A stretch of 64,000 bases of DNA from Candidatus Woesearchaeota archaeon (GCA_964406515.1 CAYORV010000001.1:33956-97955), one strand, 5' to 3'. Positions 11,966-61,895 are shown, counted from the stretch's first letter. Notes: a model not told the origin generated them from the letters alone. Translations and numbers: made by a program.

Positions 11966-11976
11966 AATATGTATTC

Positions 11977-15022: not shown

Positions 15023-15090
15023 AAAAACAACAGAAAGAAGTAATTTTTAAAATTACTCTATTGTAAATATATATTTCAGAAGCATATAGT

Positions 15091-15105
15091 TTTCTTATAT
15101 AAATG
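15091..15105 (+). promoter_or_regulatory. TATA-like element (tttcTTATATAAAtg) upstream of 15135
   Basis: AT-rich box ~31 bp upstream of the ATG. Confidence 0.35.
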
Positions 15106-15134
15106 CTTTAAAGAGTTTAAGCCGAAAGATTTGT

Positions 15135-19129: not shown

Positions 19130-19230
19130 TTTAGAAAATGGGAGTGGAGGTTTTTAAAGATTATCTAGTTTTTATCTTATATCCCACCTTAATTAAATTT
19201 ATAAATCTCGTCTTTTTCAAAGTCCTACTT

Positions 19231-24926: not shown

Positions 24927-25428
24927 ATGGATAAAAAGATTATCATTTATTTGGGTAGGGTTGGTTATCTTAAAGGTACTAATTATTTAATAGAAGCTAT
25001 GAAAAAATTAAAAGATGTTGATTTAAAATTAATAGGGTGGCTTCAAGATGCAAATTTCAAAGAACTTGAATTATCTAAAGAAATGAAAAATGTTGAGTAT
25101 TTTGGAGCAATTTTTGGAAAAAAGAAACTTGTTTATACAAGTGCATGTGATGCTTTTGTTTTGCCTTCAACAAAAGAAGGAGCTTCAATTGTTGTAATGG
25201 AAGCTCTTGCAAGAAATTTGCCAGTTGTTTCAACAGATGTTGGAGTAATAAAATTAGTAATAGAAGGTGGTTTAAATGGTAAAATAATTCCCCGGAGATA
25301 GTGATGCCATTGTCAAAGCTGTAAAAGAAATTTTGATATGGAAGAAAAAAATGTGAAACAATATGCAGAAAAATATAGGTGGGAAAAAATAATTGATGAT
25401 ACTATAGAAGATTATGAAAATATTTAAT
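24927..25428 (+). pseudogene. N-terminally truncated and frameshifted GT4 glycosyltransferase fragment (paralog of 20786..21958)
   Basis: The 124-aa ORF matches only the C-terminal third of the GT4 ('LGRVGYLKGTNYLIEAMKKLKDVDLKLIGW...PSTKEGASIVVMEALARNLPVVSTDVG'). The remainder ('...AIVKAVKEILIWKKKNVKQYAEKYRWEKIIDDTIEDYENI*') continues in another frame to 25428. Confidence 0.65.
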
Positions 25429-28016: not shown

Positions 28017-28050
28017 CTTATAAAAGGATAATTTTAATTTATAAATATTA

Positions 28051-47083: not shown

Positions 47084-47388
47084 ATATACCCTCTATCTCC
47101 AAGATGTTTTTTTAACTTCGCCTCTTCCCGCTCAGTATACGGATCCACTTCTTCTTCCTCGGCGTCTATTTTTTGTATTTGATTTCCTATAGCAGTTGCA
47201 AATTCTGCCTCTTCATCTTTAGTATATATTTCCTTTCTTTCATCTTCTTCATTTTCAAAAACTACTTGTTCTAAAACAAAAGTGATATATTGTTGAATAG
47301 ATTCAAAACTTGTTTCTTTTGTTTTCTTTTCTAATTTTTGTTTTAATTCCTTAGAAATTGAAAGATTTATTTTATTTGCCATCTTCAC
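47080..47388 (-). CDS. Small acidic protein with an RHH (CopG/Arc)-like N-terminus (family member 1 of 3)
   Basis: 'INLSISKELKQKLEKK...SIQQYITFVLEQ' beta-alpha-alpha pattern. Acidic tail with two 'YTxEEA' repeats, ending '...LKKHLGDRGYI'. 4-nt overlap with the upstream sulfatase-family gene. Confidence 0.4.
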   Translation of the reverse strand: MKMANKINLSISKELKQKLEKKTKETSFESIQQYITFVLEQVVFENEEDERKEIYTKDEEAEFATAIGNQIQKIDAEEEEVDPYTEREEAKLKKHLGDRGYI

Positions 47389-48816: not shown

Positions 48817-49104
48817 TCACATATATCCAAGATCTTCTAAACTTTCCTTCAAATCTGCTTCTTCCTCTCCGCTGTACCCCTTTCTCTTCTTATCTTCTTC
48901 ATCCCACCGAACATTTCCCTTAATGCCTGCTTCCTCTTCTTTTGTATATCCTTTTCTTTCTGTTTCCCTTCCAGAAAACATCTGTTCTAAAATAAAAAGC
49001 AAGTAATCTTGAATTGATTTAAAATTTGTTTGTTTTATCCTCTCGTCTAATTTTTGTTTTAATTCTTCGGGGATTGAAATAATTATTTCAGCTGTCATCT
49101 TCAC
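48817..49104 (-). CDS. Small acidic RHH-like protein (family member 2)
   Basis: 'IIISIPEELKQKLDERIKQTNFKSIQDYLLFILEQ'. 'GYTKEEEA...GYSGEEEADLKESLEDLGYM' repeats. Confidence 0.4.
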   Translation of the reverse strand: MKMTAEIIISIPEELKQKLDERIKQTNFKSIQDYLLFILEQMFSGRETERKGYTKEEEAGIKGNVRWDEEDKKRKGYSGEEEADLKESLEDLGYM

Positions 49105-50531
49105 AATAATTTATTTTTCTTTATAAGAATTTGTATTCTTCTTTTTTCATTTAATTTTTTCAAATCTCCTAAAGTTTTATCTAATTTTGATTTCATTTCT
49201 CTTGTAACTTTTTTATTTTTTTCAGCTAAATTTATATTTTCGTCCGGATCTTTTTCTAAATCATATAATGCGGTAATTGGTCCGTGCGTTGTATTACAGA
49301 TTCCACATACAGTGTGCTCTTTTTCAGGGGATTCCATATATTTATATTTTTTTGTTCTAATTGCTCTTCTTTTTATTCCTGCATTTTGTTCTTCCATAAT
49401 GATAGAATCTCTAATCTCTTTATCCCGACCAAATAAAAGCGGGAATAAACTTTTACCATCAAATGATAAAGAATCGTACTTTATTCCAATTAAATCAAGA
49501 ACTGTTGGAGCAAGATCTTCTAACTGGGTCAGTGCTTTAACATTTTTGTTTTGGGGAATTCCACTGCCAAAAATTATTAGGGGGATATTAAAAGAGACAT
49601 CATACACCCCCTCATTGTTGAAATAAACTTCATGTTCTCCAAGGCTTATCCCATGATCAGCGAATAAAAAAATGATAGTATCCTTTAGTAAATTCTCTTT
49701 TTTCAAAGTCTCAATTATTCTTCCTATCAATAAATCATCATAAAAAATGGCTGTATCATATTTTGTGGTTAATCCTTCGATGGTCTCATCAAATTTCCAA
49801 CAACCCCTTGAAAAATCTATATCTTTTTTATTATACCCTTCCATAGAATTTAATACCTCAAAGATTTTTTTACCCCCCGAGGGGATAGTGAATTTTTTAC
49901 TAAGAGCATAGGGAAACATATGGGGAACATGAGCATCATCATAATGTAACCATAAAAAAAAGTTGTTGTTTTTATTTTGTTTTATTATTTCTATTGCTTC
50001 ATTTGTCATTCTTTCTCCATTATTATTAAATCTTATTTTGCTTTCCAACCTTTTTGGGGTAAGATGAGTATTATGCAAAATAAATTTGAAGAAATTGTAT
50101 ATTAATGGTTTTTTTTGGAGAGATTTTATTAAATTCCATTTTTTTGATGCTTCTAAACTATCTTGTTCAAAAAAATAATCAAATCCTTTTTTTTGCCAAC
50201 CGAATAATTTTTCTAAAAAATGTGTTTTATAACCATGTTTTTGGAGTATTTCTGATAAGAGAACCCCCCCTGTATCAAAAAAAGAATTCATTTCTCTTTT
50301 AGAGGCATAATTCCCAAAATCTCTTGCTAAAATATGCCTTCCTCCGAGAATAGAGGAGAAAGATTTGTGAGTAACTGAGTAATACGAAAAAAAATTTTCG
50401 AATAATACTCCTTGGCTTGCATAAGAATCTATATTTGGGGAAGTATCTCTTTTATATCCATAACAACCAAGATTCCTTGGCCTTAAACCATCTACAGATA
50501 AAAAAATTATATTTGGTTTTTTATTTTCCAT
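49101..50531 (-). CDS. Sulfatase-family enzyme, tandem paralog of 47385..48815
   Basis: 'MENKKPNIIFLSVDGLRPRNLGCYG...' ~70% aa identity to the paralog, including long identical nucleotide runs. Confidence 0.65.
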   Translation of the reverse strand: MENKKPNIIFLSVDGLRPRNLGCYGYKRDTSPNIDSYASQGVLFENFFSYYSVTHKSFSSILGGRHILARDFGNYASKREMNSFFDTGGVLLSEILQKHGYKTHFLEKLFGWQKKGFDYFFEQDSLEASKKWNLIKSLQKKPLIYNFFKFILHNTHLTPKRLESKIRFNNNGERMTNEAIEIIKQNKNNNFFLWLHYDDAHVPHMFPYALSKKFTIPSGGKKIFEVLNSMEGYNKKDIDFSRGCWKFDETIEGLTTKYDTAIFYDDLLIGRIIETLKKENLLKDTIIFLFADHGISLGEHEVYFNNEGVYDVSFNIPLIIFGSGIPQNKNVKALTQLEDLAPTVLDLIGIKYDSLSFDGKSLFPLLFGRDKEIRDSIIMEEQNAGIKRRAIRTKKYKYMESPEKEHTVCGICNTTHGPITALYDLEKDPDENINLAEKNKKVTREMKSKLDKTLGDLKKLNEKRRIQILIKKNKLL

Positions 50532-50616
50532 TCATCTTAATATTTTAATCTATTTTTAAATTTTATGGACCTGGAATAGTAGAAATGTTTTAATACCTTA
50601 ATTTCATTTGTGAAGC

Positions 50617-50835
50617 ATGGATAAAAAAAGAGAATATGGAACAGTATCATTACCCTTGCCACTAATAACTTCTATTAAAGATAAGATTGAAGGAACAGGA
50701 ATACATTCTGTTTCTGCTTATATTTGTTTTATTCTTAGACAGATTCTTTCTTCTCCAGAAGAGAGTGATACTCCTTTAGACCGAAAAACAGAAGAAGAGA
50801 TTAAAAAGAGATTAAAAAAATTAGGCTATATCTAA
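50617..50835 (+). CDS. Small RHH-like protein (family member 3, single C-terminal repeat)
   Basis: 'VSAYICFILRQILSSPEES...KTEEEIKKRLKKLGYI' shares the helix and the C-terminal 'EEE.xK.L.xLGYI' with the other two. Confidence 0.35.
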   Translation: MDKKREYGTVSLPLPLITSIKDKIEGTGIHSVSAYICFILRQILSSPEESDTPLDRKTEEEIKKRLKKLGYI

Positions 50836-50898
50836 TAAAATTTATTACCGAGGAATACTAAATAAGATTTAAAAAGTAATTATATATAATTATATACA

Positions 50899-52317
50899 AT
50901 GGCAGAGGTTTCAAAAAAGAACGTGAGTAAAATAATGTTTCTAACTCCTAGATATACTTTGTTTAAAAATGATGTTAGAAGATGTGTGACTCCTCTTGGA
51001 TTAGCTTATTTAGGAGCATACTTGGAAAGAGAAGGTTATGAAGTAAAAATTCTTGATGTTGCTAATGAAGGGTATAATAATATTAAACCCAATTGTGAGT
51101 TTATTACTTTTGGTTTAAATGATGAAGAAATTAAAGAAAAAATCAAAGAATTTCAACCAGATATTGTTGGAGTTTCTTGTATATTTTCGACACAAGCAGA
51201 GAATGCAAAAGAGATTCTTAAGCTTGTTAAAGAAATTGATTCTGAAATTTTTACGATGATTGGGGGTTCTCATCCAACTTATGATTTATTAAATATTTTA
51301 GATAAAAATTATGTTGATTTTGTGGTGATGGGAGAAGGAGAATTGCCTGTTTCCCAATTACTGCTTGCATTAAATGAAGGAAAAGACCTATCTAAAATTG
51401 GGGGTCTTGCATACAAGTCAAACGGAAATAAAATAATAAACACCAACAAACAATATGTTGAAAACTTAGATGAATTAGCCTTTCCTGCGAGACATCTCTT
51501 AAATATGGATATGTATTTTAAGATTAATGCTCCACAAAACCCATATCCACAGGGAAAAAGGGTTGCTCAAATAATTACATCAAGGGGTTGCTCAGCGAAA
51601 TGTGTTTTTTGTACAACTACTAATTTTTGGGGGAATCGCCATAGAGGAAGAAGTGCTGAAAAAGTAATTGAAGAAATAAAGGAAATGAAGGAAAAATATA
51701 ATATAGATGAAATTCAAATCACAGATGATAATTTTACATTGAACAAAGAAAGAGCTATGCAAATTTTAGAAGGTATTAAGAATTTGAATTTATATTGGTG
51801 TGCTCCCCAAGGGATTGCTGTTTGGGCCCTAGACGAAGAATTATTGGAAAAGATGAAGGAAAGTGGTTGTTATCAATTGACTTTTGCTGTTGAAAGTGGT
51901 AATCAAAAAGTGCTGAATGAAATTGTGAAAAAGCCATTAAATCTTCAAAAAGTTAAACCTCTTGTCAAAAAAGCCAAGGAACTTGGAATTAAAGTTCATT
52001 CTTTTGCTATTTGTGGCTTACCTGGAGAAACAATAGAAAATATGCAAGAAACCTATGATTTTGTAAAAAATTGTAATTTTGATAGTGCTTCTTTTTTTGT
52101 TGCTACTCCCCTAATTGGTTCTGAATTATTGGAAACTTGTAAAAGAGAAGGTTGCTTAAGAAAAGAAATGACTTGTAAGGACCAATTGTTTAAGATTGGG
52201 AATATCTCAACTAAAGAATTTACTGCTAAACAAGTTCAGGAAATTTGTGCTAAGTTTAACAAGGAATATAATAAAAATGATACCAGGGAGAAAAAATTTG
52301 AAGATGAAAAATATTGA
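50899..52317 (+). CDS. Cobalamin-binding radical SAM enzyme (Fom3/PhpK-like position in a phosphonate operon)
   Basis: 'KIMFLTPRY...' B12-binding N-terminus. '[15 protein letters not shown]'. Overlaps the cytidylyltransferase-PEP mutase fusion gene by 14 nt. Confidence 0.7.
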
Positions 52318-53638
52318 AAATAAAAAAAGTGAAGATAAACCAAAAAAGATTTATGTGGCTATGTGTGCAGATTTGTTGCATCATGGACATATTAACATTA
52401 TAAAAGAAAGTAGGAAATTGGGAGAAGTTGTAGTTGGTTTGCTTACAGATGAGGCCATTGCGAGTTATAAAAGAGTTCCTCTTATCCCTTATGAACAAAG
52501 GAAAATAATTGTTGAGAATATAAAAGGTGTAAAAGAAGTTGTGGCTCAGGAAAATTTTGATTATGTTCCTACACTTAAAAAAGTGAGACCAGATTATGTT
52601 GTTCACGGAGATGATTGGAAAACAGGAATTCAAAGGAAGGTTCGGCAAAGAATTATAGATGTGCTTAATGAATGGGGAGGTAAAATTGTAGAAATACCTT
52701 ATACCAAAGGCATGTCCTCCACAGGACTACAAGGAAATGTAAAAGAAATAGGAATCACTCGAGAAATGAGAACGAAAAGATTAAGGAGGTTGCTTGAATT
52801 TAAACCACTGGTAAAAATTTTAGAATCCCATAATGGGTTGACAGCTATGATCGTAGAAAATACATTCATTGAAGAAAATAATGTAAAAAAAGAATTTGAT
52901 GGTGTATGGGTAAGTAGTTTAACTGACTCTGTCTCCAAAGGAAAGCCAGACACAGGAATTGTAGATTTGACTTCTAGATTGAGTACAATAAATCATATTT
53001 TAGAAGTGACTACAAAACCAATAATTCTTGATGGAGACAATGGGGGGGAAATTGAACATTTTTCATCCATGGTAAGAACATTGGAAAGATTGGGAGTTTC
53101 TGCAGTAATAATTGAAGATAAAATTGGATTCAAAAGAAATTCTTTATTTGGAACAGAAGCAAACCAATCACAAGAAGAGGTTTCAAAATTTGCAGAGAAA
53201 ATTTCTGCAGGGAAAAAAGTACAATTAGAAGATGATTTTATGATTATCTCGAGGATTGAAAGTTTAATTTTAGGAAAAGGAATTTATGATGCTCTTATTA
53301 GGGCAAAAGCATATATTGAAGCTGGAGCAGATGCCATAATGATTCACAGTAAAGAAAGAGATGGGAAAGAAATTTTAGAATTTTGTAAACAATATTCTCA
53401 AATTGAAAATAAAGTGCCCTTGGTCGTTGTGCCCTCTACATATAGCCATATTAAGGAAGAAGAATTAATCAATGCTGGAGTAAATATGGTTATCTATGCC
53501 AACCATTTATTAAGAAGTGCATATCCTGCAATGAAAAAAACAGCTGAAAAAATTTTATTGAATGAGAGAGCGTATGAGTGTGAAGAAGATTGCATGCCTA
53601 TCAAAGATCTTCTAAATTTAATTTCTGAAGGAAGATGA
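52304..53638 (+). CDS. Bifunctional cytidylyltransferase (HxGH) / phosphoenolpyruvate phosphomutase (Fom1-like architecture)
   Basis: N-term '[35 protein letters not shown]'. C-term '[15 protein letters not shown]', '[11 protein letters not shown]', '[18 protein letters not shown]', '[15 protein letters not shown]' and '[14 protein letters not shown]' match PepM/ICL-superfamily blocks. The ATG at 52304 is preferred; the track start at 52196 would lie inside the upstream gene. Confidence 0.8.
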
Positions 53639-54756
53639 TATCCTGCTCTGATTTAGCACACGTGTTTAAGGAAAATGATTTGACTTATTTTGCCGGTGTG
53701 CCTGATTCTACTTTTAAGGACTGGATGAGTTTTTTAGCAGATAGAAATAATTTAACAAACCGAATTGCATGTAATGAATGTGAGGCTATTGCTCTTGCAA
53801 CGGGATATCATCTTTCAACAAAAAATGTTGGAGTTGTTTATATGCAAAATTCTGGTTTAGGAAAAACAGTGAATCCTTTGACATCTTTAGCATCAAAAGA
53901 AGTTTATGGAATTCCTCTTATTTTAATGATTGGTTGGAGAGGAGAACCTGGAAAAAAGGATGAACCCCAACATAAAATGATGGGGAGAATTATGGAATCT
54001 CAACTTAAAACACTAGAAATTCCTTATTCAGTTCTCCCAGATAATATTGAAGATGTAGAAGAAACAATACGATGGGCTAAACAGACTGCAAAACAAAACA
54101 ACTATGCTTCAGCAATAATTATTAAAAAAAATACCTTGGAAAAATATGTCTCTGAGAATTCTACTGAAACAAATTATGAAATGTCAAGGGAAGAGGCAAT
54201 AAAAACTGTGATTGATAATTTGGAAGGAAATGAGGCAATTGTTTCAACAACAGGAAAAACTTCAAGAGAATTATTTGAATATCGGATTGCTCAAGGAGAA
54301 AAAGTCAGAGATTTTTTGACTCTTGGAAGCATGGGATGTTCTGCTTCAATTGTAGCAGAAGTGGCTTTGCAAAAACCTGATAAAAAGATTTATTGTTTTG
54401 ATGGAGATGGAGCCGTGTTGATGCAAATGGGGGCATTGTCCACTATTGGAAAATATAAACCAAAAAACTTTACTCATGTGATTTTTGATAATGCTTCTTA
54501 TGATTCAACAGGAGGGCAACCAACGAATTCAAGGAATGTTGATTTTGCACAGGTGGCAGAATCTTGTGGATATGTTAATACAAGAGTTGTTAAGACAAAA
54601 AGTGATTTAGGAAGAGTTGTTGAGAAATTAAGAAATTTAGAAGGGCCTAACATAGTTGTTGTTAATATTAATAAAGGATCGAGGAAGAATCTTGGAAGAC
54701 CCACAACAACACCCGAAGAAGATAAAACATCATTTATGGAATTTTTAGAAAAATGA
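53635..54756 (+). CDS. ppd: Phosphonopyruvate decarboxylase (TPP-dependent)
   Basis: '[16 protein letters not shown]' (Ppd N-terminal block). '[18 protein letters not shown]...[16 protein letters not shown]' TPP motif. ATGA overlap with the PepM fusion gene. Confidence 0.8.
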
Positions 54757-55856
54757 AACAACAAGAGTATTTTGACTTTGGAAGTTTAGAGAATCTTAGA
54801 GATATTTTGGAATATGAAAAATCAAGGAATGTTTTTCTTGTTACTGGAAGAGATTCTTATGAAAAATGTGGAGCTAAAGAAAAAATAGAAACGATCTTAG
54901 GAAATTCAGAAATTGGTTTTACAAGATTTTGTGATTTTTTTTCTAATCCTAACATAAAAGATATACAAAAAGGGTGTGATTCATTTAAGAAGAAAAACTA
55001 TGATCTTATTATGGGTGTTGGTGGTGGAAGTGTTATTGATACTGCAAAAGCCATTAAATTATTCAATTGCCCAAAAGCAGAGAAAATTCCTTTGATCGCG
55101 ATACCAACGACTGCCGGAAGCGGAAGTGAAGCTACGTGGTTTGTTGTTTTTTACAAAGGAAAAGAAAAACAATCTTGGGGAAATGAAACAATTACATTGC
55201 CCAATTATTCAGTCATTGACCCAAAATTAACAATGTCTCTGTCAAGAAAGGTTGCTGCGAGTACTGGTATGGATGCATTGGCTCAAGCAGTTGAATCATA
55301 TTGGTGCATTAATTCAACAGATGAATCAAAAAGAATTGCAAGACAATCGATAAAATTAACCTTAAAAAATTTGGAAAGAGCTGTTAATGGGAAAGGTAAG
55401 AGAGCAAGAGGAAATATGGCGTTATCTTCGAATCTTGCAGGAAAGGCCATTAACCTCACAAGGACTACTGCTTGTCATTCAATAGCTTATCCCATTACTT
55501 CTTATTTTGATGTTGCCCATGGGCATGCTGTTGGTTTAACTTTAGGAGAAATGCTGACTTATAATTCTAAAGTAACTGAAGGAGATTGTAATGATGGTAG
55601 GGGATTTGAGTATGCTAGAAAAACGATTAATGAATTAGTTGAGATATTTGAAGTAGGGTGTGTTGATGGAACTTCTCGTAGAATTAAAAATTTGATGGAT
55701 TCAATTGGATTAGAGACACGATTATCTGAAATAGAAATTGGCGAACAAGGAAGGGAGATTATAATCGACAAAGGATTTAAACCAGAAAGGGTTAAAAACA
55801 ATCCAAGGATATTAACAAGGAATGGATTGAGGAAAATTTTGGAGAAGATTGCTTAA
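54753..55856 (+). CDS. Iron-containing (group III) alcohol dehydrogenase (phosphonoacetaldehyde reductase, PhpC/FomC-like)
   Basis: 'DLIMGVGGGSVIDTAKAI' Fe-ADH glycine motif plus His-rich C-terminus ('CHSIAYP...HGHAVG'). ATGA overlap with ppd. Confidence 0.75.
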   Translation: MKQQEYFDFGSLENLRDILEYEKSRNVFLVTGRDSYEKCGAKEKIETILGNSEIGFTRFCDFFSNPNIKDIQKGCDSFKKKNYDLIMGVGGGSVIDTAKAIKLFNCPKAEKIPLIAIPTTAGSGSEATWFVVFYKGKEKQSWGNETITLPNYSVIDPKLTMSLSRKVAASTGMDALAQAVESYWCINSTDESKRIARQSIKLTLKNLERAVNGKGKRARGNMALSSNLAGKAINLTRTTACHSIAYPITSYFDVAHGHAVGLTLGEMLTYNSKVTEGDCNDGRGFEYARKTINELVEIFEVGCVDGTSRRIKNLMDSIGLETRLSEIEIGEQGREIIIDKGFKPERVKNNPRILTRNGLRKILEKIA

Positions 55857-57235
55857 TGAAAAAAGTATTTGTGTTTGGAATTGATGGTGCAATGCCTGAA
55901 AAGATTTTTGGCGAGTGGTTAGATGAGTTGCCAACCATCAAAAAACTTATGGGAGAAGGATGTTATGCTAAATTGAATTCGACTATTCCTCCTTTAACTG
56001 CTGTGGCTTGGACCTCTATGAGAACAGGTAAACCACCTGCTGAACATGGTCTTTTTGAATATATCTTTAGAAAAAAGAACTCTTACACAGATATGGGAGT
56101 TATATCTGCAAATAATATCCAAGAAAAATCTATTTGGCATATTGTATCTGAACACAATAAAAAATCAATAGTTTGTCTTGTTCCAATAACTTGGCCAATT
56201 AAACCTTTCACTGGAACAATTGTATCTGGATTTCTCACTCCAGATATTGAATCTGAATATACTTTTCCACGGGAATTCAAAAAAGAAATAAAATCTCTTT
56301 TTGACGAACCATTTATTATAGATCTCTATGATCATAGAAAACTATCTAAAAAAGAACTCTTAGAAAAATGTATTAAAATTACTGAAATGCATTTTAAATT
56401 AATGAAATATTTAATTCGAAAAAAGGAATGGGATTTATTTTTTGGAATAATTGCCGCGAGTGATTGGGTAAATCATAGTTTTTTCAAATATATGGATAAA
56501 GAACATAGAAATTATGAACCAGATTCTGAATTTAAAAATACTTTAAAAAATTATTATAAATTTGTAGATAAGAATCTTGGAGAATTGATAGAACTACTTC
56601 CAAAAGATACTACTATCATTATTGTTTCTGATCATGGTATAAAAAGGATGCATAATAGATTTAACTTGAGTGATTGGCTTTTGAAAAAAGGTTATTTGGT
56701 TTTAAAAGAAAAATTTGAAACAAAACTCCCTCTCAACTTAGAAATGATTGATTGGGAAAAAACAAGGGCTTGGGCGATTGGAGCATATGAAGGGCAGATA
56801 TTTATTAATTTAAAGAATCGAGAACCTGGAGGAATTGTAGACGAAAAAGATTATGATGAATTGGTGGAAGAGATTCAAGAAGGATTGTCTCAAATAAAAG
56901 GAGATCGAGGAGAGGAATTAGATACAAAATTCTTCAAGAAGAAAAAAGATTTTGTTGGGAAAAATAACCAACACGCTCCAGATCTGATGGTTTATTTTGA
57001 TGATTTGCAATATGGATGTAATAATTCTTTTGTCCACAATGAAACAATGTGGAATATTGAGACTCTGAAGGGGAAGGATGATGCGGGACATTCGAGACAA
57101 GGAATGTTTATAATGAACAAGTCTAATCAAAAGGGGTATATTGGAGAAATTGATATTTTAGATGTTGCTCCTACAATATTAAACCTATTAAAAGTAACAA
57201 TGCCCAGAGATCTTAAAGGAAAAATCATAAAATGA
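55856..57235 (+). CDS. Nucleotide pyrophosphatase/phosphodiesterase (NPP, PF01663-type) AP-superfamily enzyme
   Basis: 'VFGIDGAMPE', 'NSTIPPLTAVAWTSMRTGKPPAEHGLF' (T-x-P...TG..P..HG NPP block), 'VSDHGI'. TAATG overlap with the Fe-ADH. Confidence 0.6.
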   Translation: MKKVFVFGIDGAMPEKIFGEWLDELPTIKKLMGEGCYAKLNSTIPPLTAVAWTSMRTGKPPAEHGLFEYIFRKKNSYTDMGVISANNIQEKSIWHIVSEHNKKSIVCLVPITWPIKPFTGTIVSGFLTPDIESEYTFPREFKKEIKSLFDEPFIIDLYDHRKLSKKELLEKCIKITEMHFKLMKYLIRKKEWDLFFGIIAASDWVNHSFFKYMDKEHRNYEPDSEFKNTLKNYYKFVDKNLGELIELLPKDTTIIIVSDHGIKRMHNRFNLSDWLLKKGYLVLKEKFETKLPLNLEMIDWEKTRAWAIGAYEGQIFINLKNREPGGIVDEKDYDELVEEIQEGLSQIKGDRGEELDTKFFKKKKDFVGKNNQHAPDLMVYFDDLQYGCNNSFVHNETMWNIETLKGKDDAGHSRQGMFIMNKSNQKGYIGEIDILDVAPTILNLLKVTMPRDLKGKIIK

Positions 57236-57310
57236 TTTCTAAGCCTCCAAAATTTCATTGCCTATGAATACTCAATAAACTTTAAATAGTATTCCTAAAT
57301 AATTATTTTT

Positions 57311-58687
57311 ATGAGAAATAAAAAGGTGTTTGTTTTAGGGATTGATGGTGCTCCTCCCGAACTAATCTTCAATGAATGGTTGGATGATTTACCCGTAATT
57401 AAAAAATTAATGCTAGAAGGAACTTATGCAAAATTAAATAGCACCATTCCTCCTGTGTCTGCGGTTGCTTGGATATCGATGTGTACTGGAAAGTTGCCTT
57501 CTGATCATGGGGTTTTTGATTATATATGTAGAAAAAATAATTCCTATGAGGACATAAGTGTAGTTTCAACTAATAATGTTCAGGAAGAATCTGTTTGGGA
57601 AATTCTTTCTAGATATAATAAAAAATCAATTTTTTGTTTAATTCCAGTAACTTGGCCAATTAAACCCTTTGATGGCATTGGGGTTAGCGGATTTCTCACT
57701 CCGAGAGTTAAAAGAGATTATGTTTATCCTTCGCACCTACAACAAGAAGTTGAATCTCTTTTTGATGAACCTTTTATAATAGACATAGAAAAACATAGAG
57801 ATTTATCAAAAGAAGATTTGCTTGAAAAAATTTATAAAATGACTGAAATGCATTTTAAATTGATGAAGCATATGATAAAAAATAAACAATGGGATTTGTT
57901 CTGGGGAGTGATTATGGGAAGCGATAGAATGAATCATAACTTTTGGAGGTTCTTTGATAAGGGGCATAGAAGATATGAAAATAATCTTGAATTTGAAACT
58001 GCATTAAAAGATTATTATAAATTCCTGGATAAAAATCTTGGAGAATTAATTCAATTACTTGATGATGATACAACAATCATTGTAGTCTCGGACCATGGAA
58101 TACAGAAAATGGATACTAGGGTGAATTTAAGTGATTGGCTTATTAAAGAAGGATACTTGGTCCTTAAAGAACCTGTTAAAGAAAAAATGAAATTTACTAT
58201 GGATATGGTTAATTGGGACGAAACAAGGGTTTTTGCAAGGGGTGCATGGGATGGACAAATTTTTCTTAATTTAAAAGGCAGAGAAGAAAAAGGAATTGTG
58301 AATGAGGACGAATATGAAAATCTTATTGAAGAGTTAGAAATGAAATTAAAACAAATAAAAGGGGATGATGAAAAAGTTTTGGATACAAAGATTTTCAAGA
58401 AAAAAGATTATAGCGGGAAATTTGATAACATTGCGCCAGACATGATTATTTATTTTGATAATTTGAATTATGGATGTAATACAACTTTAATAGGAAATCC
58501 TACTTTTTGGTCTCCTCAAACAGCAATTGGTAGTGATGATGTCACTCATTCGAAAAAAGGGATATTTATTACTAATAATTCTCAGAAAGGAAACATTGGA
58601 GAAATTGGAATTATAGACATTGCTCCAACAATCCTAAATGAATTAGAAGTGCCAATCCCCAAAGATATGAAGGGGGAGATCTTATGA
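57311..58687 (+). CDS. NPP-family AP-superfamily enzyme, tandem paralog
   Basis: 'VLGIDGAPPE...NSTIPPVSAVAWISMCTGKLPSDHGVF...VSDHGI'. ~50% identical to 55856..57235. Confidence 0.6.
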   Translation: MRNKKVFVLGIDGAPPELIFNEWLDDLPVIKKLMLEGTYAKLNSTIPPVSAVAWISMCTGKLPSDHGVFDYICRKNNSYEDISVVSTNNVQEESVWEILSRYNKKSIFCLIPVTWPIKPFDGIGVSGFLTPRVKRDYVYPSHLQQEVESLFDEPFIIDIEKHRDLSKEDLLEKIYKMTEMHFKLMKHMIKNKQWDLFWGVIMGSDRMNHNFWRFFDKGHRRYENNLEFETALKDYYKFLDKNLGELIQLLDDDTTIIVVSDHGIQKMDTRVNLSDWLIKEGYLVLKEPVKEKMKFTMDMVNWDETRVFARGAWDGQIFLNLKGREEKGIVNEDEYENLIEELEMKLKQIKGDDEKVLDTKIFKKKDYSGKFDNIAPDMIIYFDNLNYGCNTTLIGNPTFWSPQTAIGSDDVTHSKKGIFITNNSQKGNIGEIGIIDIAPTILNELEVPIPKDMKGEIL

Positions 58688-59139
58688 AAGTTGTTTATAC
58701 ATATGTTGTTGCAGATTTATTGCATATGGGGCATGTTCTTTATTTAGAAAATGCTAGAACCTTCGGAGATAAATTAATTGTGGGGGTTTTAACAGACAAA
58801 GCTGCAATGGAAAAAAAACCAAAACCTGCCTTGGCTTTTAGTGAAAGAATGAGATTAGTAAAGGCACTTAAGTGTGTTGATTGTGTTGTTGCTCAAGATG
58901 ATTATTCTCCAATAAATAACATAAAATCAATTAAACCCGATGTCTTAATTGAGAGTTCTAGTCATTCTGAAGAAAATTTGCTGAAAGTAAAAGAACTTGC
59001 GAATGCAATTTCATGTAAGGTTATTGTAATGCCTTATTATCCTGGTCAAAGTTCAACTCAGATTAAGGAAGGTATAAGAAACAATATTGCAGATTCAGGA
59101 AATCAAGATAGTTTGAATAAGGAACCAAGAAGGGAGTGA
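58684..59139 (+). CDS. Cytidylyltransferase (TagD/LicC-like, HxGH)
   Basis: 'VVYTYVVADLLHMGHVLYLENARTFGDKLIVGVLTD'. ATGA overlap with the upstream NPP gene. Confidence 0.65.
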   Translation: MKVVYTYVVADLLHMGHVLYLENARTFGDKLIVGVLTDKAAMEKKPKPALAFSERMRLVKALKCVDCVVAQDDYSPINNIKSIKPDVLIESSSHSEENLLKVKELANAISCKVIVMPYYPGQSSTQIKEGIRNNIADSGNQDSLNKEPRRE

Positions 59140-59140: not shown

Positions 59141-60340
59141 ATGGGAAAAGATAAATTCTGGCAGATTTGGAGTTCTTATGCAACCTATTATTTTGGCAGA
59201 GTTAATTTATCTATTGTAATTCCTGTTTTACTTGCTACTTATGGTTTAACGAAATATCATCTTGGACTTGTGGCAAGTGGTTTCTTTTTTGCATATGCTA
59301 TAGGGCAATTTTTACATGGCCAATTATCTGAAAGATTTAATCCCTATACTTATTTGGCAATTGGTTTAATTGGTTCTGCTATAATGAATTTATTTTTGGG
59401 ATTTTCCATGGGATTTTTTTGGATATTATTTATTGGAGAAATAATGGATGGAAGTTTTCAGTCTATGGGTTGGAGTTCTGCTGTAAGGGCTAATGCGGAA
59501 AATTCAAGGAAATTGGGAAAGAATATAGAAAAAAGATCTTGTGCTCTTGGGACTTCTTATCAAATTGGAAATTCAATAACTTGGTTGGTCTCTTCATTAG
59601 TTGTTGGGTTATTTGGATGGCAATGGGGATTCTTGACAGCGAGCGGATTTATGTTCTTGAGAGGTATAACATTATTGATAAATAGGCCAAGAATGAAATT
59701 TGAAAAACAGAAAGTTCAAAAACAATTAAAGAAAACTATTCAACCACCCATAGTCATTGCTGGATTTGCAATGATGCTATTGAATATTGTGAGATATGGT
59801 ATTATTGTGTGGATTCCAACCTATTTAATTGAAGTTCAGGGCTCAAGTATTATTGGTGCAGGATTGAAGATTTTCTTAATCCCTGTCGCAGGGGTTTTTG
59901 GAACCCTTATTTATAATAAATCGAAGATGAACAGGGATTTTTTAACAATTATCTTTTTAGCTGTTTTAAGCTCCATATTCATATTTTATGGCTATTTATC
60001 TAACTTAATGTCTGTTGTTGTATTAATCCTAAGTGGATTTTTCTTATATGGTCCCCATGTTTTTTTAGTTTCAACCTTTCCAAGCAAATTTTTAAAGGAT
60101 AATGTTGTTGGAGCTTCTACTGGATTCATAGATGGTATGGCTTATGTTGGGGCTATTATTGTTGGATTGCTTGTTCCTTTTTTGCTGGATATTAGTAATT
60201 GGGCATTAGTATTCTTATCTTGGTCAACTTGCTGTTTAATGATTATCTTATTAGTCATGTTCTTATATGTTGATGCACAAGTAGATGGGAAAAAAGCAAA
60301 AGAAAGAGATATATTGAATCTTAAAGAAGCCATAGAATAA
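59141..60340 (+). CDS. Major facilitator superfamily transporter
   Basis: ~12 TM segments. 'GQLSERFNPY' MFS motif A-like loop. Confidence 0.55.
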   Translation: MGKDKFWQIWSSYATYYFGRVNLSIVIPVLLATYGLTKYHLGLVASGFFFAYAIGQFLHGQLSERFNPYTYLAIGLIGSAIMNLFLGFSMGFFWILFIGEIMDGSFQSMGWSSAVRANAENSRKLGKNIEKRSCALGTSYQIGNSITWLVSSLVVGLFGWQWGFLTASGFMFLRGITLLINRPRMKFEKQKVQKQLKKTIQPPIVIAGFAMMLLNIVRYGIIVWIPTYLIEVQGSSIIGAGLKIFLIPVAGVFGTLIYNKSKMNRDFLTIIFLAVLSSIFIFYGYLSNLMSVVVLILSGFFLYGPHVFLVSTFPSKFLKDNVVGASTGFIDGMAYVGAIIVGLLVPFLLDISNWALVFLSWSTCCLMIILLVMFLYVDAQVDGKKAKERDILNLKEAIE

Positions 60341-60341: not shown

Positions 60342-61895
60342 CTATTTTAAGTGTTTGTTTCTTTTGAATTTTTTAAAAATAGTTTTTATTATATACAAAT
60401 CATGTTCATCTAAACATTTTGTTGTTAAGAGTAAAAGAGTATAAACCGCTAGGAAAAAAATACCGCAAAGGATTAGAGATAGCAAGTTTGTTTCCATAAA
60501 AGATTTAACAATCAGGAGTAATATCGCAGACACGATTGTTATTAATGTTATTCTAACCATCTTTTTTCTTAATGGAATAATTGAAAGATATTTTTTAGCT
60601 TGTATTAGGAACAATACATTTAGGATTACTAAAGAGGTCATTGTGGCAAAACCTGCTCCTGTAATTCCATACAATGGTACTAATACGAAATTAAGGATTG
60701 CGTTTAGAATCCCTGCGAAAATTAAATCTATCAAAAGAAGTTTAGATTTTCCTTTCATAGAGAGGAGTTCTTGCGAAATTCCGAAAAGTGTTGAGAATAA
60801 AACTCCAATAGATAAAAATCTTAGAGCATTTACTGCTACAAGATACTCCTGACCAAAAAGGAGATTAATAACTGCTCCGGGAAAAATAATAAAAAGAACA
60901 AAAATTGGCAGAACCATCATAAAAACCCATTTACCAACCTGTTGACTTAATTGTTTTACTATTTCAAGTCTTCCTTTAGAGAATTCTTTTGTTACAAGAG
61001 GGAAAAAAAGTTGGGAAAAAAACATCATTGGCAAAGACAATAACATGGCTATTGGGATAGCAGCATTATAAAAACCAACATCTTTTGCAGTTTGGAATAT
61101 TCCAATCATAAAAGAATCAACCCAATAAAAAATGAATGTGACAACGCCATAAAAAACTAATGGCCAAGAATAAGAAAACATTTCTTTAAAGGCTTTTTTA
61201 GTTTCTAAGTTTTTTATTTTCTTCTTTGAACTAAAGATTTCAGAAAGTGTAATCTTACAAACAAAATAAGAGGCGATGAATATTGAGAGGGTTCCAATTA
61301 AATAAGATATTGGAACAGATTTTGAATTTATCCCAAAAAAGATTAACAGAATTAAAATTGCTAGTTTGATAAAATTTCCTAAAATATTTGCGATAAAAGA
61401 GAACCACCCTATTTTTTCATAAGCTCTTAAAACAGATAATAAAGTTTCTCCTAAAACCGCTAGAGGAACAGTAATACTAAAAATTTTTAGAAAAATAATT
61501 AAATTAGGATCAGAGAATATTTTCAATGCAATAAATTCGGAAAAAAAGAATAATAAAATACCTGCTATGATACTTGTAATGATTAAGATAATAAAGGAGA
61601 TTTTTATTAAACCTCGAATTTTCCCTTTTTCTCCTTTCCCCCTTAGTAGAGAGACATGTCTTAGAAGTCCTTGTTTAATTCCCAAATTAGAAATGACTCT
61701 AAACCAACTAAATAGCATAACTGATAAGGCAAATAAACCATAGATTTCTGGACCATAATGCCGAGCAATTACTATCCTATATCCATAAAAAATTATCTTT
61801 GATAAAAAAAGTCCAATAAAAACTATTATTGAAGATTTGGCCAGTAATTTTAATCCGGTTTTTATCCCTGCTTCATTGTCTTTCTCTAAGTTCAT
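60342..61895 (-). CDS. Wzx-like polysaccharide/oligosaccharide flippase (MOP superfamily)
   Basis: 517 aa, 12-14 TM helices. N-terminal 'LLAKSSIIVFIGLFLSKIIFYGYRIVIARHYGPEIYGLF', typical of polysaccharide-biosynthesis (Wzx) proteins. Confidence 0.65.
   Translation of the reverse strand: MNLEKDNEAGIKTGLKLLAKSSIIVFIGLFLSKIIFYGYRIVIARHYGPEIYGLFALSVMLFSWFRVISNLGIKQGLLRHVSLLRGKGEKGKIRGLIKISFIILIITSIIAGILLFFFSEFIALKIFSDPNLIIFLKIFSITVPLAVLGETLLSVLRAYEKIGWFSFIANILGNFIKLAILILLIFFGINSKSVPISYLIGTLSIFIASYFVCKITLSEIFSSKKKIKNLETKKAFKEMFSYSWPLVFYGVVTFIFYWVDSFMIGIFQTAKDVGFYNAAIPIAMLLSLPMMFFSQLFFPLVTKEFSKGRLEIVKQLSQQVGKWVFMMVLPIFVLFIIFPGAVINLLFGQEYLVAVNALRFLSIGVLFSTLFGISQELLSMKGKSKLLLIDLIFAGILNAILNFVLVPLYGITGAGFATMTSLVILNVLFLIQAKKYLSIIPLRKKMVRITLITIVSAILLLIVKSFMETNLLSLILCGIFFLAVYTLLLLTTKCLDEHDLYIIKTIFKKFKRNKHLK

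What the first reader, a model, noticed from the sequence alone, without database searches (positions are those of the whole stretch)
50532..59139. The phosphonate cassette lacks every known tailoring enzyme (no aminotransferase, HppE, HepD or MpnS): a hydroxy-alkylphosphonate glycan modification is implied
The plus-strand block 50617..59139 contains no cupin or 2-His-1-carboxylate oxygenase candidate and no AEP-transaminase. The only other PLP enzymes in the window belong to sugar-type modules. The chemically simplest product is therefore 2-HEP, or its C-methylated derivative if the B12-rSAM acts like Fom3, kept as a CMP-diester and transferred to a sugar. This is analogous to the phosphonoglycan logic proposed for the Nitrosopumilus mpn cluster, which also carries sulfatase and nucleotidyltransferase genes, but with a different head group.
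Basis: inference. Interest (0 to 1): 0.7.

Follow-up and report, generated by a model that had tools for sequence, protein, structure and literature searches.

The report
Fosfomycin-type early pathway without its finishing enzymes
A tiny symbiotic-type archaeon (Pacearchaeota-like) carries the first four enzymes of the fosfomycin antibiotic pathway but none of the finishing enzymes, inside its cell-surface sugar island. It therefore probably makes CMP-activated 2-hydroxypropylphosphonate and uses it to decorate its surface rather than to make an antibiotic.

Summary
No cupin, HD oxygenase or AEP-transaminase gene lies in the cassette, in the rest of the window, or within 10 kb on either side.

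It is an operon of orthologues of Streptomyces Fom3, Fom1, Fom2 and FomC:
- Fom3 (B12 radical-SAM enzyme): 41.8% identity.
- Fom1 (cytidylyltransferase fused to PEP mutase): 58.5% identity over both domains.
- Fom2 (phosphonopyruvate decarboxylase): 40% identity.
- FomC (Fe-alcohol dehydrogenase): 32% identity.

FomD, HppE and FomA/B are absent. The predicted end product is cytidylyl-2-hydroxypropylphosphonate (HPP-CMP).

The host is a Pacearchaeota-like DPANN archaeon. The cassette sits in an island of sugar-modification genes that begins beside the oligosaccharyltransferase gene AglB.

In 16 related archaeal cassettes the same core is joined to one of two kinds of partner, never both:
- CDP-alcohol phosphotransferase (5 loci) or LicD (1 locus).
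- NPP-fold PF01663 enzymes, usually with Thr-type "sulfatase-like" proteins (10 loci, this window included).

This argues that the CMP-phosphonate is a donor for surface decoration. The transferase role of the PF01663 and sulfatase-like proteins, and the acceptor (glycan or lipid), are inferred, not shown.

I found no description of 2-HPP as a surface head group, or of DPANN phosphonate synthesis, in the held literature. Verdict: a new variant of a known kind, of moderately high interest.

The parts
50899..52317 (+). Fom3-like B12-binding radical-SAM methyltransferase (472 aa). Predicted to C-methylate HEP-CMP to HPP-CMP.
   Evidence: Pfam B12-binding plus Radical_SAM. CX3CX2C motif at residue 231. 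41.8% identity and 413 bits to S. wedmorensis Fom3, against 181 bits for the next best rSAM in the window. Best NCBIfam hit is NF038361, the Sden_1168 family, at 353 bits, below its cut-off of 575. Belongs to the PepM-linked clade.
52277..53638 (+). Fom1-like bifunctional enzyme: N-terminal PF01467 cytidylyltransferase (HEP to HEP-CMP) fused to PEP mutase. The start is uncertain (ATG at 52277 or 52304) and overlaps the end of the rSAM gene.
   Evidence: 58.5% identity over 427 aa to Fom1. The cytidylyltransferase domain matches PDB 5x3d at E = 1.5e-54. TIGR02320 PEP_mutase scores 398 bits, above its cut-off. Motifs [10 protein letters not shown] and HHGH are present.
53635..54756 (+). Phosphonopyruvate decarboxylase (Fom2/Ppd).
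   Evidence: TIGR03297 scores 448 bits, above its cut-off of 312. 40% identity to Fom2.
54753..55856 (+). Fe-dependent alcohol dehydrogenase, a probable phosphonoacetaldehyde reductase (FomC/PhpC-like) that makes 2-HEP.
   Evidence: Pfam Fe-ADH. Best NCBIfam hit is TIGR03405 Phn_Fe-ADH at 167 bits, below its cut-off. 31.7% identity and 200 bits to FomC. Always adjacent to Ppd in relatives.
55856..57235 (+). PDE1: soluble NPP-fold alkaline-phosphatase-superfamily enzyme (PF01663). Proposed CMP-phosphonate:acceptor phosphonyl transferase. The alternative is a CMP-phosphonate hydrolase.
   Evidence: Pfam hit. No TM segment or signal peptide. AF2 model with pLDDT 86 matches ENPP/NPP/PhnA folds at TM 0.55-0.68. 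Follows the ADH gene directly in 9 of the related archaeal cassettes. Never co-occurs with LicD or CDP-OH_P_transf in these cassettes.
57311..58687 (+). PDE2: paralogue of PDE1 (60% identity). Forms a conserved pair with the small cytidylyltransferase that follows it.
   Evidence: PDE2-type followed by CyT2-type is seen in L106, L109 and L158. In L106 the pair sits next to a sulfatase-like gene with no PepM cassette.
58684..59139 (+). CyT2: stand-alone PF01467 cytidylyl/adenylyl-transferase (151 aa), substrate unknown.
   Evidence: Pfam hit. NCBIfam RfaE domain II at 93 bits and TagD at 57 bits, both below their cut-offs. Its start overlaps the PDE2 stop codon by 4 nt.
59141..60340 (+). MFS transporter of the organophosphate:phosphate antiporter type (PgtP/GlpT/UhpC-like). 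Last gene of the operon. Not conserved in relatives.
   Evidence: Pfam MFS_1. TIGR00881 scores 137 bits. No homologue in the 79 PDE loci.
50617..50835 (+). 72-aa ribbon-helix-helix-like ORF at the head of the operon. One of three paralogues ending in LGY[IM].
   Evidence: Sequence. Called as a gene in the source contig. A 77-aa counterpart lies at the same place in L092.
49101..50531 (-). Sulfatase-family protein 1 (476 aa), divergently transcribed. Soluble, with Thr at the formylglycine position, so not a true sulfatase.
   Evidence: Pfam Sulfatase. Alignment to solved sulfatases shows 'V-T-H-K-S-F' where C/S-x-P-x-R should be. No TM segment. Conserved in the same position in L092, L102, L115 and L129.
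47385..48815 (-). Sulfatase-family protein 2, 75% identical to protein 1.
48817..49104 (-). Small RHH-like paralogue lying between the two sulfatase-like genes.
47080..47388 (-). Small RHH-like paralogue downstream of sulfatase-like gene 2.
60342..61895 (-). Wzx/MATE-type polysaccharide flippase, convergent with the operon. It marks the glycan context.
   Evidence: Pfam Polysacc_synt_3, Polysacc_synt and MatE. A flippase also lies next to the cassette in L092, L096 and L097.

Best explanation
The operon 50899-55856 encodes the first five catalytic activities of the Streptomyces fosfomycin pathway and stops there.

**Predicted pathway.**
1. PEP is converted to phosphonopyruvate by the PepM domain.
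2. Phosphonopyruvate is converted to phosphonoacetaldehyde by Ppd.
3. Phosphonoacetaldehyde is reduced to 2-hydroxyethylphosphonate (2-HEP) by the Fe-ADH.
4. 2-HEP is converted to HEP-CMP by the Fom1-type cytidylyltransferase domain.
5. HEP-CMP is converted to 2-hydroxypropylphosphonyl-CMP (HPP-CMP) by the Fom3-type B12 radical-SAM methyltransferase.

**What follows.** No FomD is present to remove CMP and no HppE to make the epoxide. The CMP-phosphonate is therefore the end product, and it acts as an activated donor. The phosphonyl group is transferred on the cytoplasmic side to a hydroxyl of a nascent glycan. The acceptor is probably a lipid-linked N-glycan precursor, which would later be flipped and attached by AglB. 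The transfer is most likely done by the soluble NPP-fold enzyme PDE1, possibly together with the Thr-type sulfatase-like proteins.

PDE2, CyT2 and the MFS transporter look like a second, neighbouring module. It would install a different CMP-activated phospho-group.

**Level of evidence.** Steps 1-5 rest on strong homology. The donor role rests on comparative gene context. The identity of the transferase and of the acceptor is inference.
For: **Orthology to the fom genes.**
- Fom1 58.5%, Fom2 40%, Fom3 41.8% and FomC 31.7% identity, all over full length.
- The cytidylyltransferase domain scores 189 bits against the Fom1 CyTase crystal structure.
- PepM and Ppd score above their NCBIfam equivalog cut-offs.

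**Fom3 clade.**
- When the rSAM homologues from the 94 loci held at that point are ranked against Fom3, the top 11 (397 bits or more) all have a cytidylyltransferase and PepM beside them. Those at 325 bits or less lack them, apart from a more distant rSAM in L026.
- NJ tree support: PepM-linked clade 70%; Fom3 plus archaeal clade 66%.

**Absence of finishing enzymes.** FomD, HppE and FomA/B occur only in the two Streptomyces loci among the roughly 180 loci fetched.

**Published biochemistry.** Fom1 CyTase makes CMP-HEP, Fom3 uses it, and FomD is needed to free HPP (PMC6697681; PMC9204698 ref 39; PMC9088020).

**Donor role.**
- Of 8 archaeal cassettes sampled through the rSAM, 5 carry CDP-OH_P_transf, 1 carries LicD and 2 carry PF01663. 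None carries two kinds or none.
- Over all 16 cassettes, 10 have PDE and 6 have CDP-OH_P_transf or LicD, with no overlap.
- L115 has CyT~PepM-Ppd-ADH-PDE and no rSAM. There, cytidylylation followed by hydrolysis would be futile.
- Each PDE type has its own cytidylyltransferase partner.

**Cell-surface context.**
- A flippase lies next to the operon.
- AglB/STT3 and a GT4-family gene lie at the island's upstream edge.
- PDE1 and the sulfatase-like proteins have no signal peptide or TM segment.
Against: - No product chemistry is available.
- The Fom3-like rSAM and the ADH score below their NCBIfam equivalog cut-offs.
- rSAM relatives at about 45% identity, such as L094, occur without PepM. Identity alone therefore does not fix the substrate.
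- Bootstrap support is only moderate.
- PF01663/NPP enzymes are known as hydrolases. Their structural matches are ENPPs and PhnA, and none is known to transfer from a CMP donor.
- About 40% of close PDE homologues in long contigs have no phosphonate genes within 10 kb, so the family is not phosphonate-specific.
- The 10 PDE-type cassettes include 8 that were found by searching with PDE itself. This biases that half of the complementarity count.
- Relatives with CDP-alcohol phosphotransferases could be making phosphonolipids rather than glycans.
Confidence: 0.55

Rival explanations
1. The product is a free small molecule. PDE1 and/or PDE2 act as nucleotide pyrophosphatases, non-homologous analogues of FomD. 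They hydrolyse HPP-CMP to free 2-HPP plus CMP, and the MFS transporter exports the 2-HPP as a diffusible metabolite.
For: - PDE1 has the NPP/ENPP hydrolase fold.
- The window holds no LicD or CDP-alcohol transferase.
- An MFS transporter closes the operon.
Against: - The cassette is embedded in a glycan island next to a flippase.
- The MFS is of the organophosphate:Pi antiporter type and is absent from all relatives.
- Cassettes with no rSAM (L115) would cytidylylate and then hydrolyse for nothing.
- PDE is replaced by genuine CMP-donor transferases in sister cassettes.
Confidence: 0.15
2. The head group is plain 2-HEP. The adjacent B12-rSAM methylates a sugar or another substrate, as the many other rSAMs in the island presumably do.
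For: - The island has at least 5 B12-rSAMs.
- Relatives of this rSAM at about 45% identity occur without PepM.
- The match to any curated rSAM family falls below the cut-off.
Against: - It is the only rSAM in the window close to Fom3: 413 bits against 181 or less for the others.
- It lies in the clade whose members are all linked to PepM and a cytidylyltransferase.
- Its stop codon overlaps the start of the Fom1-like gene.
- HEP-only cassettes simply lack this rSAM (L115).
Confidence: 0.1
3. The phosphonate goes onto a lipid, not a glycan. HPP-CMP would be condensed with archaeol, diacylglycerol or dolichol to give a phosphonolipid head group.
For: - Five of eight rSAM-sampled relatives carry a CDP-alcohol phosphatidyltransferase (PF01066) next to the cassette. 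That family typically builds lipid head groups.
- By general knowledge, not tested here, DPANN archaea scavenge and could remodel host lipids.
Against: - This window and L092 have no PF01066 gene.
- Their candidate transferases are soluble.
- L090 uses LicD, which is a glycan or teichoic-acid modifier.
- Flippase and GT genes surround the cassette.
Confidence: 0.12
4. Further tailoring does occur, by enzymes that are not recognisable. Candidates are the Thr-type sulfatase-like proteins, PDE2, or one of the unannotated ORFs. The final head group would then be more elaborate than 2-HPP.
For: - Several ORFs have no family assignment.
- Relatives add a second B12-rSAM directly after the ADH.
- Vitreimonas L013 adds a PhyH dioxygenase and a class-III aminotransferase.
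Against: - None of these extra genes is present in this window's operon.
- The alkaline-phosphatase-superfamily fold predicts phosphoryl or phosphonyl transfer, not redox chemistry.
Confidence: 0.08

Closest known systems
Streptomyces fosfomycin pathway (fom1-4, fomA-D; S. wedmorensis NRRL 3426, locus L027)
   Same: The first five activities have orthologues here: Fom1 (CyTase-PepM fusion, 58.5% identity), Fom2 (40%), FomC (32%) and Fom3 (42%). The fusion architecture and the CMP-activated intermediate are the same.
   Different: FomD (CMP removal), Fom4/HppE (epoxidation) and the FomA/B resistance kinases are missing. The host is archaeal, the setting is a glycan island, and alkaline-phosphatase-superfamily genes replace the late genes.
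Phosphonyl-tailoring (Pnt) pathways of bacteria: PepM-Ppd-AEPT plus PntC (LicC-like PF12804) plus LicD-type transferase (Rice et al. 2019, PMC6697681)
   Same: The logic is the same: make a phosphonate, cytidylylate it, then transfer it to a cell-surface polymer. The cytidylyltransferase is fused to PepM.
   Different: The head group is HEP/HPP, not AEP. The cytidylyltransferase is PF01467 (Fom1-type), not PF12804. There is no aminotransferase and no LicD in this window, although a relative (L090) has LicD.
Nitrosopumilus maritimus methylphosphonate (mpn) cluster
   Same: It is an archaeal PepM-Ppd-ADH core making 2-HEP. According to the literature, sulfatase-family and nucleotidyltransferase genes are its neighbours, and its product is an ester on an exopolysaccharide (PMC9381506; PMC8942020).
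   Different: No MpnS is present here. A Fom3-type rSAM takes its place, so a carbon is added rather than removed. I could not fetch the Nitrosopumilus locus for a direct comparison.
2-HEP phosphonoglycans of Stackebrandtia and Glycomyces
   Same: A hydroxyalkylphosphonate ester on a polysaccharide, made by a PepM-Ppd-ADH branch (PMC8942020).
   Different: Those carry HEP and its hydroxylated forms. No Fom3-type methylation is reported for them, and they are bacterial.
NPP/ENPP nucleotide pyrophosphatase-phosphodiesterases and PhnA (alkaline phosphatase superfamily)
   Same: PDE1 and PDE2 share the fold. By alignment they also share the metal-ligand pattern and the Thr/Ser nucleophile.
   Different: Identity is only 13-16%. 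The proteins are cytoplasmic, are encoded in glycan or phosphonate operons, and are each paired with a cytidylyltransferase. A transferase role is proposed, and it has no precedent in this family.

Membership tests
Fosfomycin biosynthetic gene cluster (Streptomyces type) | Fom1: PEP mutase (EDKxxxxxNS motif) with an N-terminal PF01467 HEP cytidylyltransferase domain | tested here: met
   58.5% identity over 427 aa. PDB 5x3d at E = 1.5e-54. Motifs present.
Fosfomycin biosynthetic gene cluster (Streptomyces type) | Fom2 phosphonopyruvate decarboxylase and FomC phosphonoacetaldehyde reductase | tested here: met
   TIGR03297 at 448 bits, above its cut-off. Fom2 40% and FomC 31.7% identity. The ADH scores below its NCBIfam equivalog cut-off.
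Fosfomycin biosynthetic gene cluster (Streptomyces type) | Fom3: B12 rSAM that methylates HEP-CMP | tested here: inconclusive
   41.8% identity, membership of the PepM-linked Fom3 clade, and overlap with the Fom1-like gene. Activity was not tested and bootstrap support is 66-70%.
Fosfomycin biosynthetic gene cluster (Streptomyces type) | FomD (HPP-CMP hydrolase, DUF402) | tested here: not met
   No tblastn hit in the window plus or minus 10 kb, or in any non-Streptomyces locus.
Fosfomycin biosynthetic gene cluster (Streptomyces type) | Fom4/HppE epoxidase (cupin) | tested here: not met
   No cupin Pfam hit in any ORF.
Fosfomycin biosynthetic gene cluster (Streptomyces type) | FomA/FomB self-resistance kinases | tested here: not met
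Methylphosphonate (mpn) cluster | MpnS, the cupin-type methylphosphonate synthase | tested here: not met
   No Pfam cupin hit. Unannotated ORFs searched against the PDB, which includes 6b9s and 6b9r, gave no hit at E <= 5. All ORFs of 300 aa or more have other assignments, except two that have no PDB relative.
AEP-type phosphonyl tailoring (Pnt) | AEP transaminase (PhnW-like, class V) and PntC (PF12804) | tested here: not met
   The only aminotransferases are DegT (43378-44448) and an AspAT-like class-I enzyme (28051-29235). The cytidylyltransferase fused to PepM is PF01467.
AEP-type phosphonyl tailoring (Pnt) | LicD-family or CDP-alcohol phosphotransferase to deliver the CMP-activated group | tested here: not met
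   Absent from the window by Pfam and by tblastn. Present in the sister cassettes L088, L090, L093, L095, L096 and L097.
Formylglycine-dependent sulfatases (PF00884) | C/S-x-P-x-R motif that is converted to formylglycine | tested here: not met
   Alignment to solved sulfatases puts 'T-H-K-S-F' at that site in 49101-50531. The paralogue 47385-48815 is 75% identical and, by eye, has the same stretch in its sequence.
NPP-type alkaline-phosphatase-superfamily enzymes (PF01663) | NPP fold with a bimetal site and a Thr/Ser nucleophile at a helix N-terminus | tested here: met
   - Pfam E = 1e-42.
- AF2 model with pLDDT 86 matches ENPP1/3/5/6, Xac NPP and PhnA.
- D10, D259, H260, D408 and H412 are invariant.
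- T/S48 lies at the start of helix 48-57.
Archaeal N-glycosylation island | AglB/STT3, an AglH-like GT4-family gene, a flippase and nucleotide-sugar genes lying together | tested here: met
   STT3 (947 aa) and PF00953 lie just upstream of the window. The flippase is at 60342-61895, and many GT and sugar-nucleotide genes are present.

The most novel reading that the evidence does not exclude
**New transferase class.** Soluble alkaline-phosphatase-superfamily enzymes are a previously unrecognised class of cytoplasmic transferases. These are the NPP-fold PF01663 proteins, perhaps working with the Thr-type "sulfatase-like" proteins. They would move CMP-activated phosphonyl or phospho-alcohol groups onto nascent archaeal glycans, doing the job that LicD and CDP-alcohol phosphotransferases do elsewhere.

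**Origin of fosfomycin.** The Fom1-Fom3 module is primarily a widespread cell-surface "2-hydroxypropylphosphonylation" pathway, found in DPANN archaea, Omnitrophota and Alphaproteobacteria. Streptomyces would have derived fosfomycin from it by adding FomD and HppE. That would explain the otherwise odd transient cytidylylation in fosfomycin biosynthesis.
Probability: 0.3. Interest if true: 0.8.

Novelty: new variant of a known kind. Interest (0 to 1): 0.62.

Why it matters
**A new head group and a new producer.** 2-Hydroxypropylphosphonate is known only as a fleeting fosfomycin intermediate. Here its CMP-activated form appears to be the end product of a conserved operon in DPANN archaea and some bacteria. 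That would add a new phosphonate head group to cell-surface chemistry. It would also add an abundant, uncultured, ultra-small archaeal group to the list of C-P bond producers in aquatic systems.

**A rationale for a puzzling step.** It suggests why fosfomycin biosynthesis cytidylylates HEP only to remove the CMP again: the step may be inherited from a pathway in which CMP activation was the point.

**Testable enzymes.** The NPP-fold and Thr-type sulfatase-like proteins are testable candidates for a new kind of phospho(no)transferase.

**Cofactor dependence.** A genome-reduced symbiont invests in at least five B12-dependent radical-SAM enzymes in its glycan island. This implies a strong dependence on scavenged cobalamin.

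Tried and rejected
- **Cupin regular expressions.** A search over all six-frame ORFs found nothing. The test is too crude to count alone.
- **Bacterial promoter and terminator scan of the operon.** The counts equalled those of shuffled sequence, and the tool does not suit an archaeon.
- **Sequence search of PDE1 against the PDB.** No hits. An AF2 model was needed.
- **Looking for the Fom3 sequence in paper supplements.** It was not there. It came instead from the genome-contig scan, which returned the S. wedmorensis fom locus.
- **Metcalf 2012 and McLaughlin 2018.** Neither paper is held. The Nitrosopumilus locus could not be compared directly.
- **One wasted context look-up.** P0144 turned out to be the window's own PDE2.
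- **Cluster-member look-up.** It returned no organism names. Taxonomy came from RpoD homologues.
- **P-methyltransferase reading of the rSAM.** This was suggested by the NCBIfam name of the Sden_1168 family. I rejected it because nothing in the operon makes a phosphinate precursor. The physiological role of SD_1168 is also stated to be unknown, C- or P-methylation (PMC9204698).
- **AspAT-like gene 28051-29235 as a PalB-like phosphonoalanine branch.** I rejected this. The gene is 22 kb away, on the other strand, and paired with a SPASM rSAM (the two are fused in L090). Ppd also sits directly after PepM.

Full report
**1. What is there**

The window has about 31% G+C and is densely coded. It matches a 213-kb JGI metagenome contig exactly.

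Downstream of the window lie SecDF and archaeal ribosomal and RNA polymerase genes (L21e, S13, S4, S11, Rpb4, RpoD). Upstream lie AglB/STT3 and an AglH-like PF00953 gene.

The RpoD protein is 76% identical to one named "Candidatus Pacearchaeota archaeon". Homologues of the cassette proteins are named Nanoarchaeota or Pacearchaeota. The host is therefore a Pacearchaeota-like DPANN archaeon.

Almost the whole window is a glycan-biosynthesis island. It holds:
- glycosyltransferases
- nucleotide-sugar dehydratases and epimerases
- GHMP kinase-nucleotidyltransferase fusions
- a flippase
- five B12 radical-SAM genes
- four SPASM radical-SAM genes

**2. The observation**

Pfam scans of every sizeable ORF found no cupin, HD, 2OG-dioxygenase, class-V or class-III aminotransferase.

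The plus-strand operon is tightly packed. Neighbouring genes overlap or abut, and the one 75-nt gap lies between the two PF01663 genes. The genes are:

| Coordinates | Gene |
|---|---|
| 50617-50835 | 72-aa RHH-like ORF |
| 50899-52317 | B12-rSAM |
| 52277-53638 | cytidylyltransferase-PEP mutase fusion |
| 53635-54756 | Ppd |
| 54753-55856 | Fe-ADH |
| 55856-57235 | PF01663 protein (PDE1) |
| 57311-58687 | PF01663 protein (PDE2) |
| 58684-59139 | small cytidylyltransferase (CyT2) |
| 59141-60340 | MFS transporter |

A genome scan seeded with the rSAM alignment returned the Streptomyces wedmorensis NRRL 3426 fom locus (L027). I extracted authentic Fom1-4 and FomA-D from it. Fom4 was confirmed as HppE (PDB 1zz6) and FomD as PDB 5zdm.

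tblastn of these proteins against the window and 10 kb on each side gave strong hits for Fom1, Fom2, Fom3 and FomC. It gave only noise for Fom4, FomD, FomA and FomB.

The ten ORFs with no Pfam family, searched together against all PDB sequences, showed no relation to MpnS, HEPD, HppE or PhnZ.

One correction applies. An AspAT-like class-I aminotransferase (28051-29235) is not a classical sugar aminotransferase. It belongs to a distant operon with a SPASM rSAM and is fused to such an rSAM in a relative.

**3. What it is**

The fusion protein is 58.5% identical to Fom1 over both domains. Its N-terminal domain scores 189 bits against the crystal structure of the Fom1 cytidylyltransferase domain. 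The PepM motif EDKxxxxxNS and the HxGH motif are present. PepM and Ppd exceed their NCBIfam equivalog cut-offs.

The rSAM is 41.8% identical to Fom3 (413 bits). The other B12-rSAMs of the window reach 181 bits at most.

Similarity alone is not enough here, because relatives at about 45% identity exist without PepM (L094). I therefore ranked the rSAM homologues from the 94 loci then in hand against Fom3. The 11 best (397 bits or more) all have a cytidylyltransferase and PepM beside them. These are two Streptomyces, an Omnitrophota MAG, a Vitreimonas MAG and the archaeal set that includes this window. Those at 325 bits or less lack them, apart from a more distant rSAM in L026.

An NJ tree recovers one PepM-linked clade with 70% bootstrap support. 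Fom3 and the archaeal group sit together at 66%.

Published work establishes three points:
- The Fom1 cytidylyltransferase makes CMP-HEP (PMC6697681).
- Fom3 acts on cytidylyl-HEP (PMC9204698 ref 39).
- CMP must be removed by FomD before HppE can act (PMC9088020).

The operon thus encodes PEP → PnPy → PnAA → HEP → HEP-CMP → HPP-CMP and then stops.

**4. What happens to HPP-CMP**

FomD and HppE occur only in the two Streptomyces loci among the roughly 180 loci fetched.

In eight archaeal cassettes sampled through the rSAM, the conserved core is joined to different partner genes:

| Partner next to the core | Loci |
|---|---|
| CDP-alcohol phosphatidyltransferase | L088, L093, L095, L096, L097 |
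| LicD | L090 |
| PF01663 enzyme plus a sulfatase-family protein | this window, L092 |

A metagenome scan seeded with the PF01663 protein gave 79 loci. Among the 17 loci of at least 12 kb with a homologue of at least 54% identity, 10 carry PepM, or Ppd plus ADH, within 10 kb. The usual order is CyT~PepM-Ppd-ADH-PDE.

Over 16 archaeal cassettes, 10 have PF01663 and 6 have CDP-alcohol transferase or LicD. None has both. This count has a bias, because eight of the ten PF01663 cassettes were found by searching with PF01663.

LicD and CDP-alcohol phosphotransferases both use CMP-linked donors. The pattern therefore suggests that the CMP-phosphonate is a donor and that PF01663 fills the transferase slot.

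Two further observations speak against a simple hydrolase role:
- L115 has the cytidylyltransferase and PF01663 but no rSAM. Activation followed by hydrolysis would be futile there.
- Each PF01663 type has its own cytidylyltransferase partner. PDE2-type is always followed by CyT2-type (L106, L109, L158). In L106 that pair lies next to the sulfatase-like gene with no PepM cassette at all.

The window's cluster is therefore composite. A phosphonate module (RHH, rSAM, Fom1-like, Ppd, ADH, PDE1) sits between a sulfatase-like gene and a PDE2-CyT2(-MFS) module. The second module probably handles another CMP-activated phospho-group.

**5. The candidate transferases**

PDE1 and PDE2 are 60% identical, and the two sulfatase-like proteins are 75% identical. 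None has a signal peptide or a TM segment.

An AF2 model of PDE1 (pLDDT 86) matches ENPP1/3/5/6, Xanthomonas NPP and PhnA at TM 0.55-0.68 and 13-16% identity. Residues D10, D259, H260, D408 and H412 are invariant, and T/S48 lies at a helix N-terminus.

The sulfatase-like proteins carry Thr where true sulfatases have the Cys or Ser that becomes formylglycine, and they lack the C/S-x-P-x-R motif. They are not sulfatases. They resemble the phosphotransferase/phosphatase branch of the superfamily.

Transfer would have to take place on the cytoplasmic face, on a nucleotide sugar or a lipid-linked oligosaccharide. Flipping (Wzx-like gene at 60342-61895) and AglB-dependent attachment would follow. 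This last part is inference.

**6. Comparison with known systems**

- **Fosfomycin cluster.** This is not one: three defining features (FomD, HppE, FomA/B) were tested and not met.
- **Bacterial AEP "Pnt" pathways.** It works like them (make, cytidylylate, transfer). It differs in having a PF01467 cytidylyltransferase, no aminotransferase and a different head group.
- **Nitrosopumilus mpn cluster.** It resembles that cluster in core and neighbours according to the literature. A carbon-adding rSAM stands where MpnS would be.
- **Literature search.** The held literature gave no report of 2-HPP as a glycan or lipid head group, or of phosphonate synthesis in DPANN. One 2019 review even states that the CyTase-fused Fom1 is found only in fosfomycin clusters.

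**7. Verdict**

- Well supported by homology: the pathway to HPP-CMP.
- Supported by comparative context: the donor role of HPP-CMP.
- Hypotheses: the transferase identity and the acceptor.

This is a new variant of a known kind. Interest is about 0.6. It rises if the alkaline-phosphatase-superfamily proteins prove to be a new transferase class, or if the fosfomycin pathway is shown to descend from this surface-decoration module.

Noticed in passing
window 47080-47388(-), 48817-49104(-), 50617-50835(+): Three small paralogous ORFs (102, 95 and 72 aa). Each has an N-terminal ribbon-helix-helix-like 'IS(I/L)P..L...L' segment, an acidic middle and a conserved C-terminal LGY[I/M]. They are interleaved with the sulfatase-like genes and head the phosphonate operon. 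Similar 95-aa and 77-aa ORFs lie at the same places in L092. They may be regulators. No Pfam or PDB match.
   Followed up: partly
window 13484-15022(-), 19138-20784, 25482-26909, 44894-47083, 50899-52317; SPASM rSAMs 4643-5671(-), 17020-18018(-), 17990-19129(-), 26934-28079(-); two more B12-rSAMs in L005: The density of B12-dependent and SPASM radical-SAM genes is unusually high for one glycan island of a genome-reduced DPANN archaeon. It implies extensive radical modification of sugars and dependence on scavenged cobalamin.
   Followed up: no
window 26934-28079(-) and 28051-29235(-); L090 18553-20769; L098 15774-19046: An AspAT-like class-I aminotransferase is paired with a SPASM rSAM here. 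The same pair is fused into one 738-aa protein in L090. In L098 it forms part of a 1090-aa fusion of NTP-transferase, aminotransferase and B12-rSAM. This is a conserved module of unknown function.
   Followed up: partly
L088, L092, L093, L096, L102, L103, L129 (gene directly after the Fe-ADH): Many sister cassettes carry a second, different B12-rSAM (526-538 aa, about 24% identical to the Fom3-like one). This window lacks it. It suggests that further radical methylation gives a family of different alkylphosphonate head groups.
   Followed up: partly
protein hits P0221, P0223, P0224, P0235; L098: The PF01663 family occurs fused to NTP-transferase domains, to a pyruvate-kinase-barrel domain and to an HD domain. 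The NTP-transferase fusion sits in an AEP-type PepM cluster that also has LicD, a class-V aminotransferase and a CyTase-PPDK_N fusion.
   Followed up: partly
window 23043-23810 and 23886-24863: A 255-aa ORF carries H...HD...D-type motifs, so it may be a divergent HD-domain protein. It has no Pfam or PDB match and lies next to a PHP-domain protein, 27 kb from the cassette.
   Followed up: partly
window 24927-25301: A 124-aa ORF matches only the C-terminal part of the GT1 family domain. It is probably a gene fragment or pseudogene.
   Followed up: no
window 59141-60340: The MFS transporter at the end of the operon belongs to the organophosphate:phosphate antiporter group (PgtP/GlpT/UhpC-like), whose members import PEP, phosphoglycerate or glycerol-3-phosphate. 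It could supply a precursor to a metabolically reduced host. It is absent from all related loci.
   Followed up: partly
L013 (Vitreimonas MAG) 7959-15771; L022 (Omnitrophota MAG): Bacterial members of the Fom3 clade (56-64% identical to Fom3) also lack HppE and FomD. L013 adds a CDP-alcohol transferase, a PhyH dioxygenase and a class-III aminotransferase. L022 has PepM fused to PF12804, a separate Fom1-like CyTase, and GT and GDP-mannose dehydratase genes.
   Followed up: partly
window 214-2506: A 400-aa ORF with a weak Pol-beta-type nucleotidyltransferase signature is followed by a third, shorter PF01663 protein (362 aa). The pair lies at the other end of the island, next to an LPG_synthase_TM gene in the flank.
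   Followed up: no
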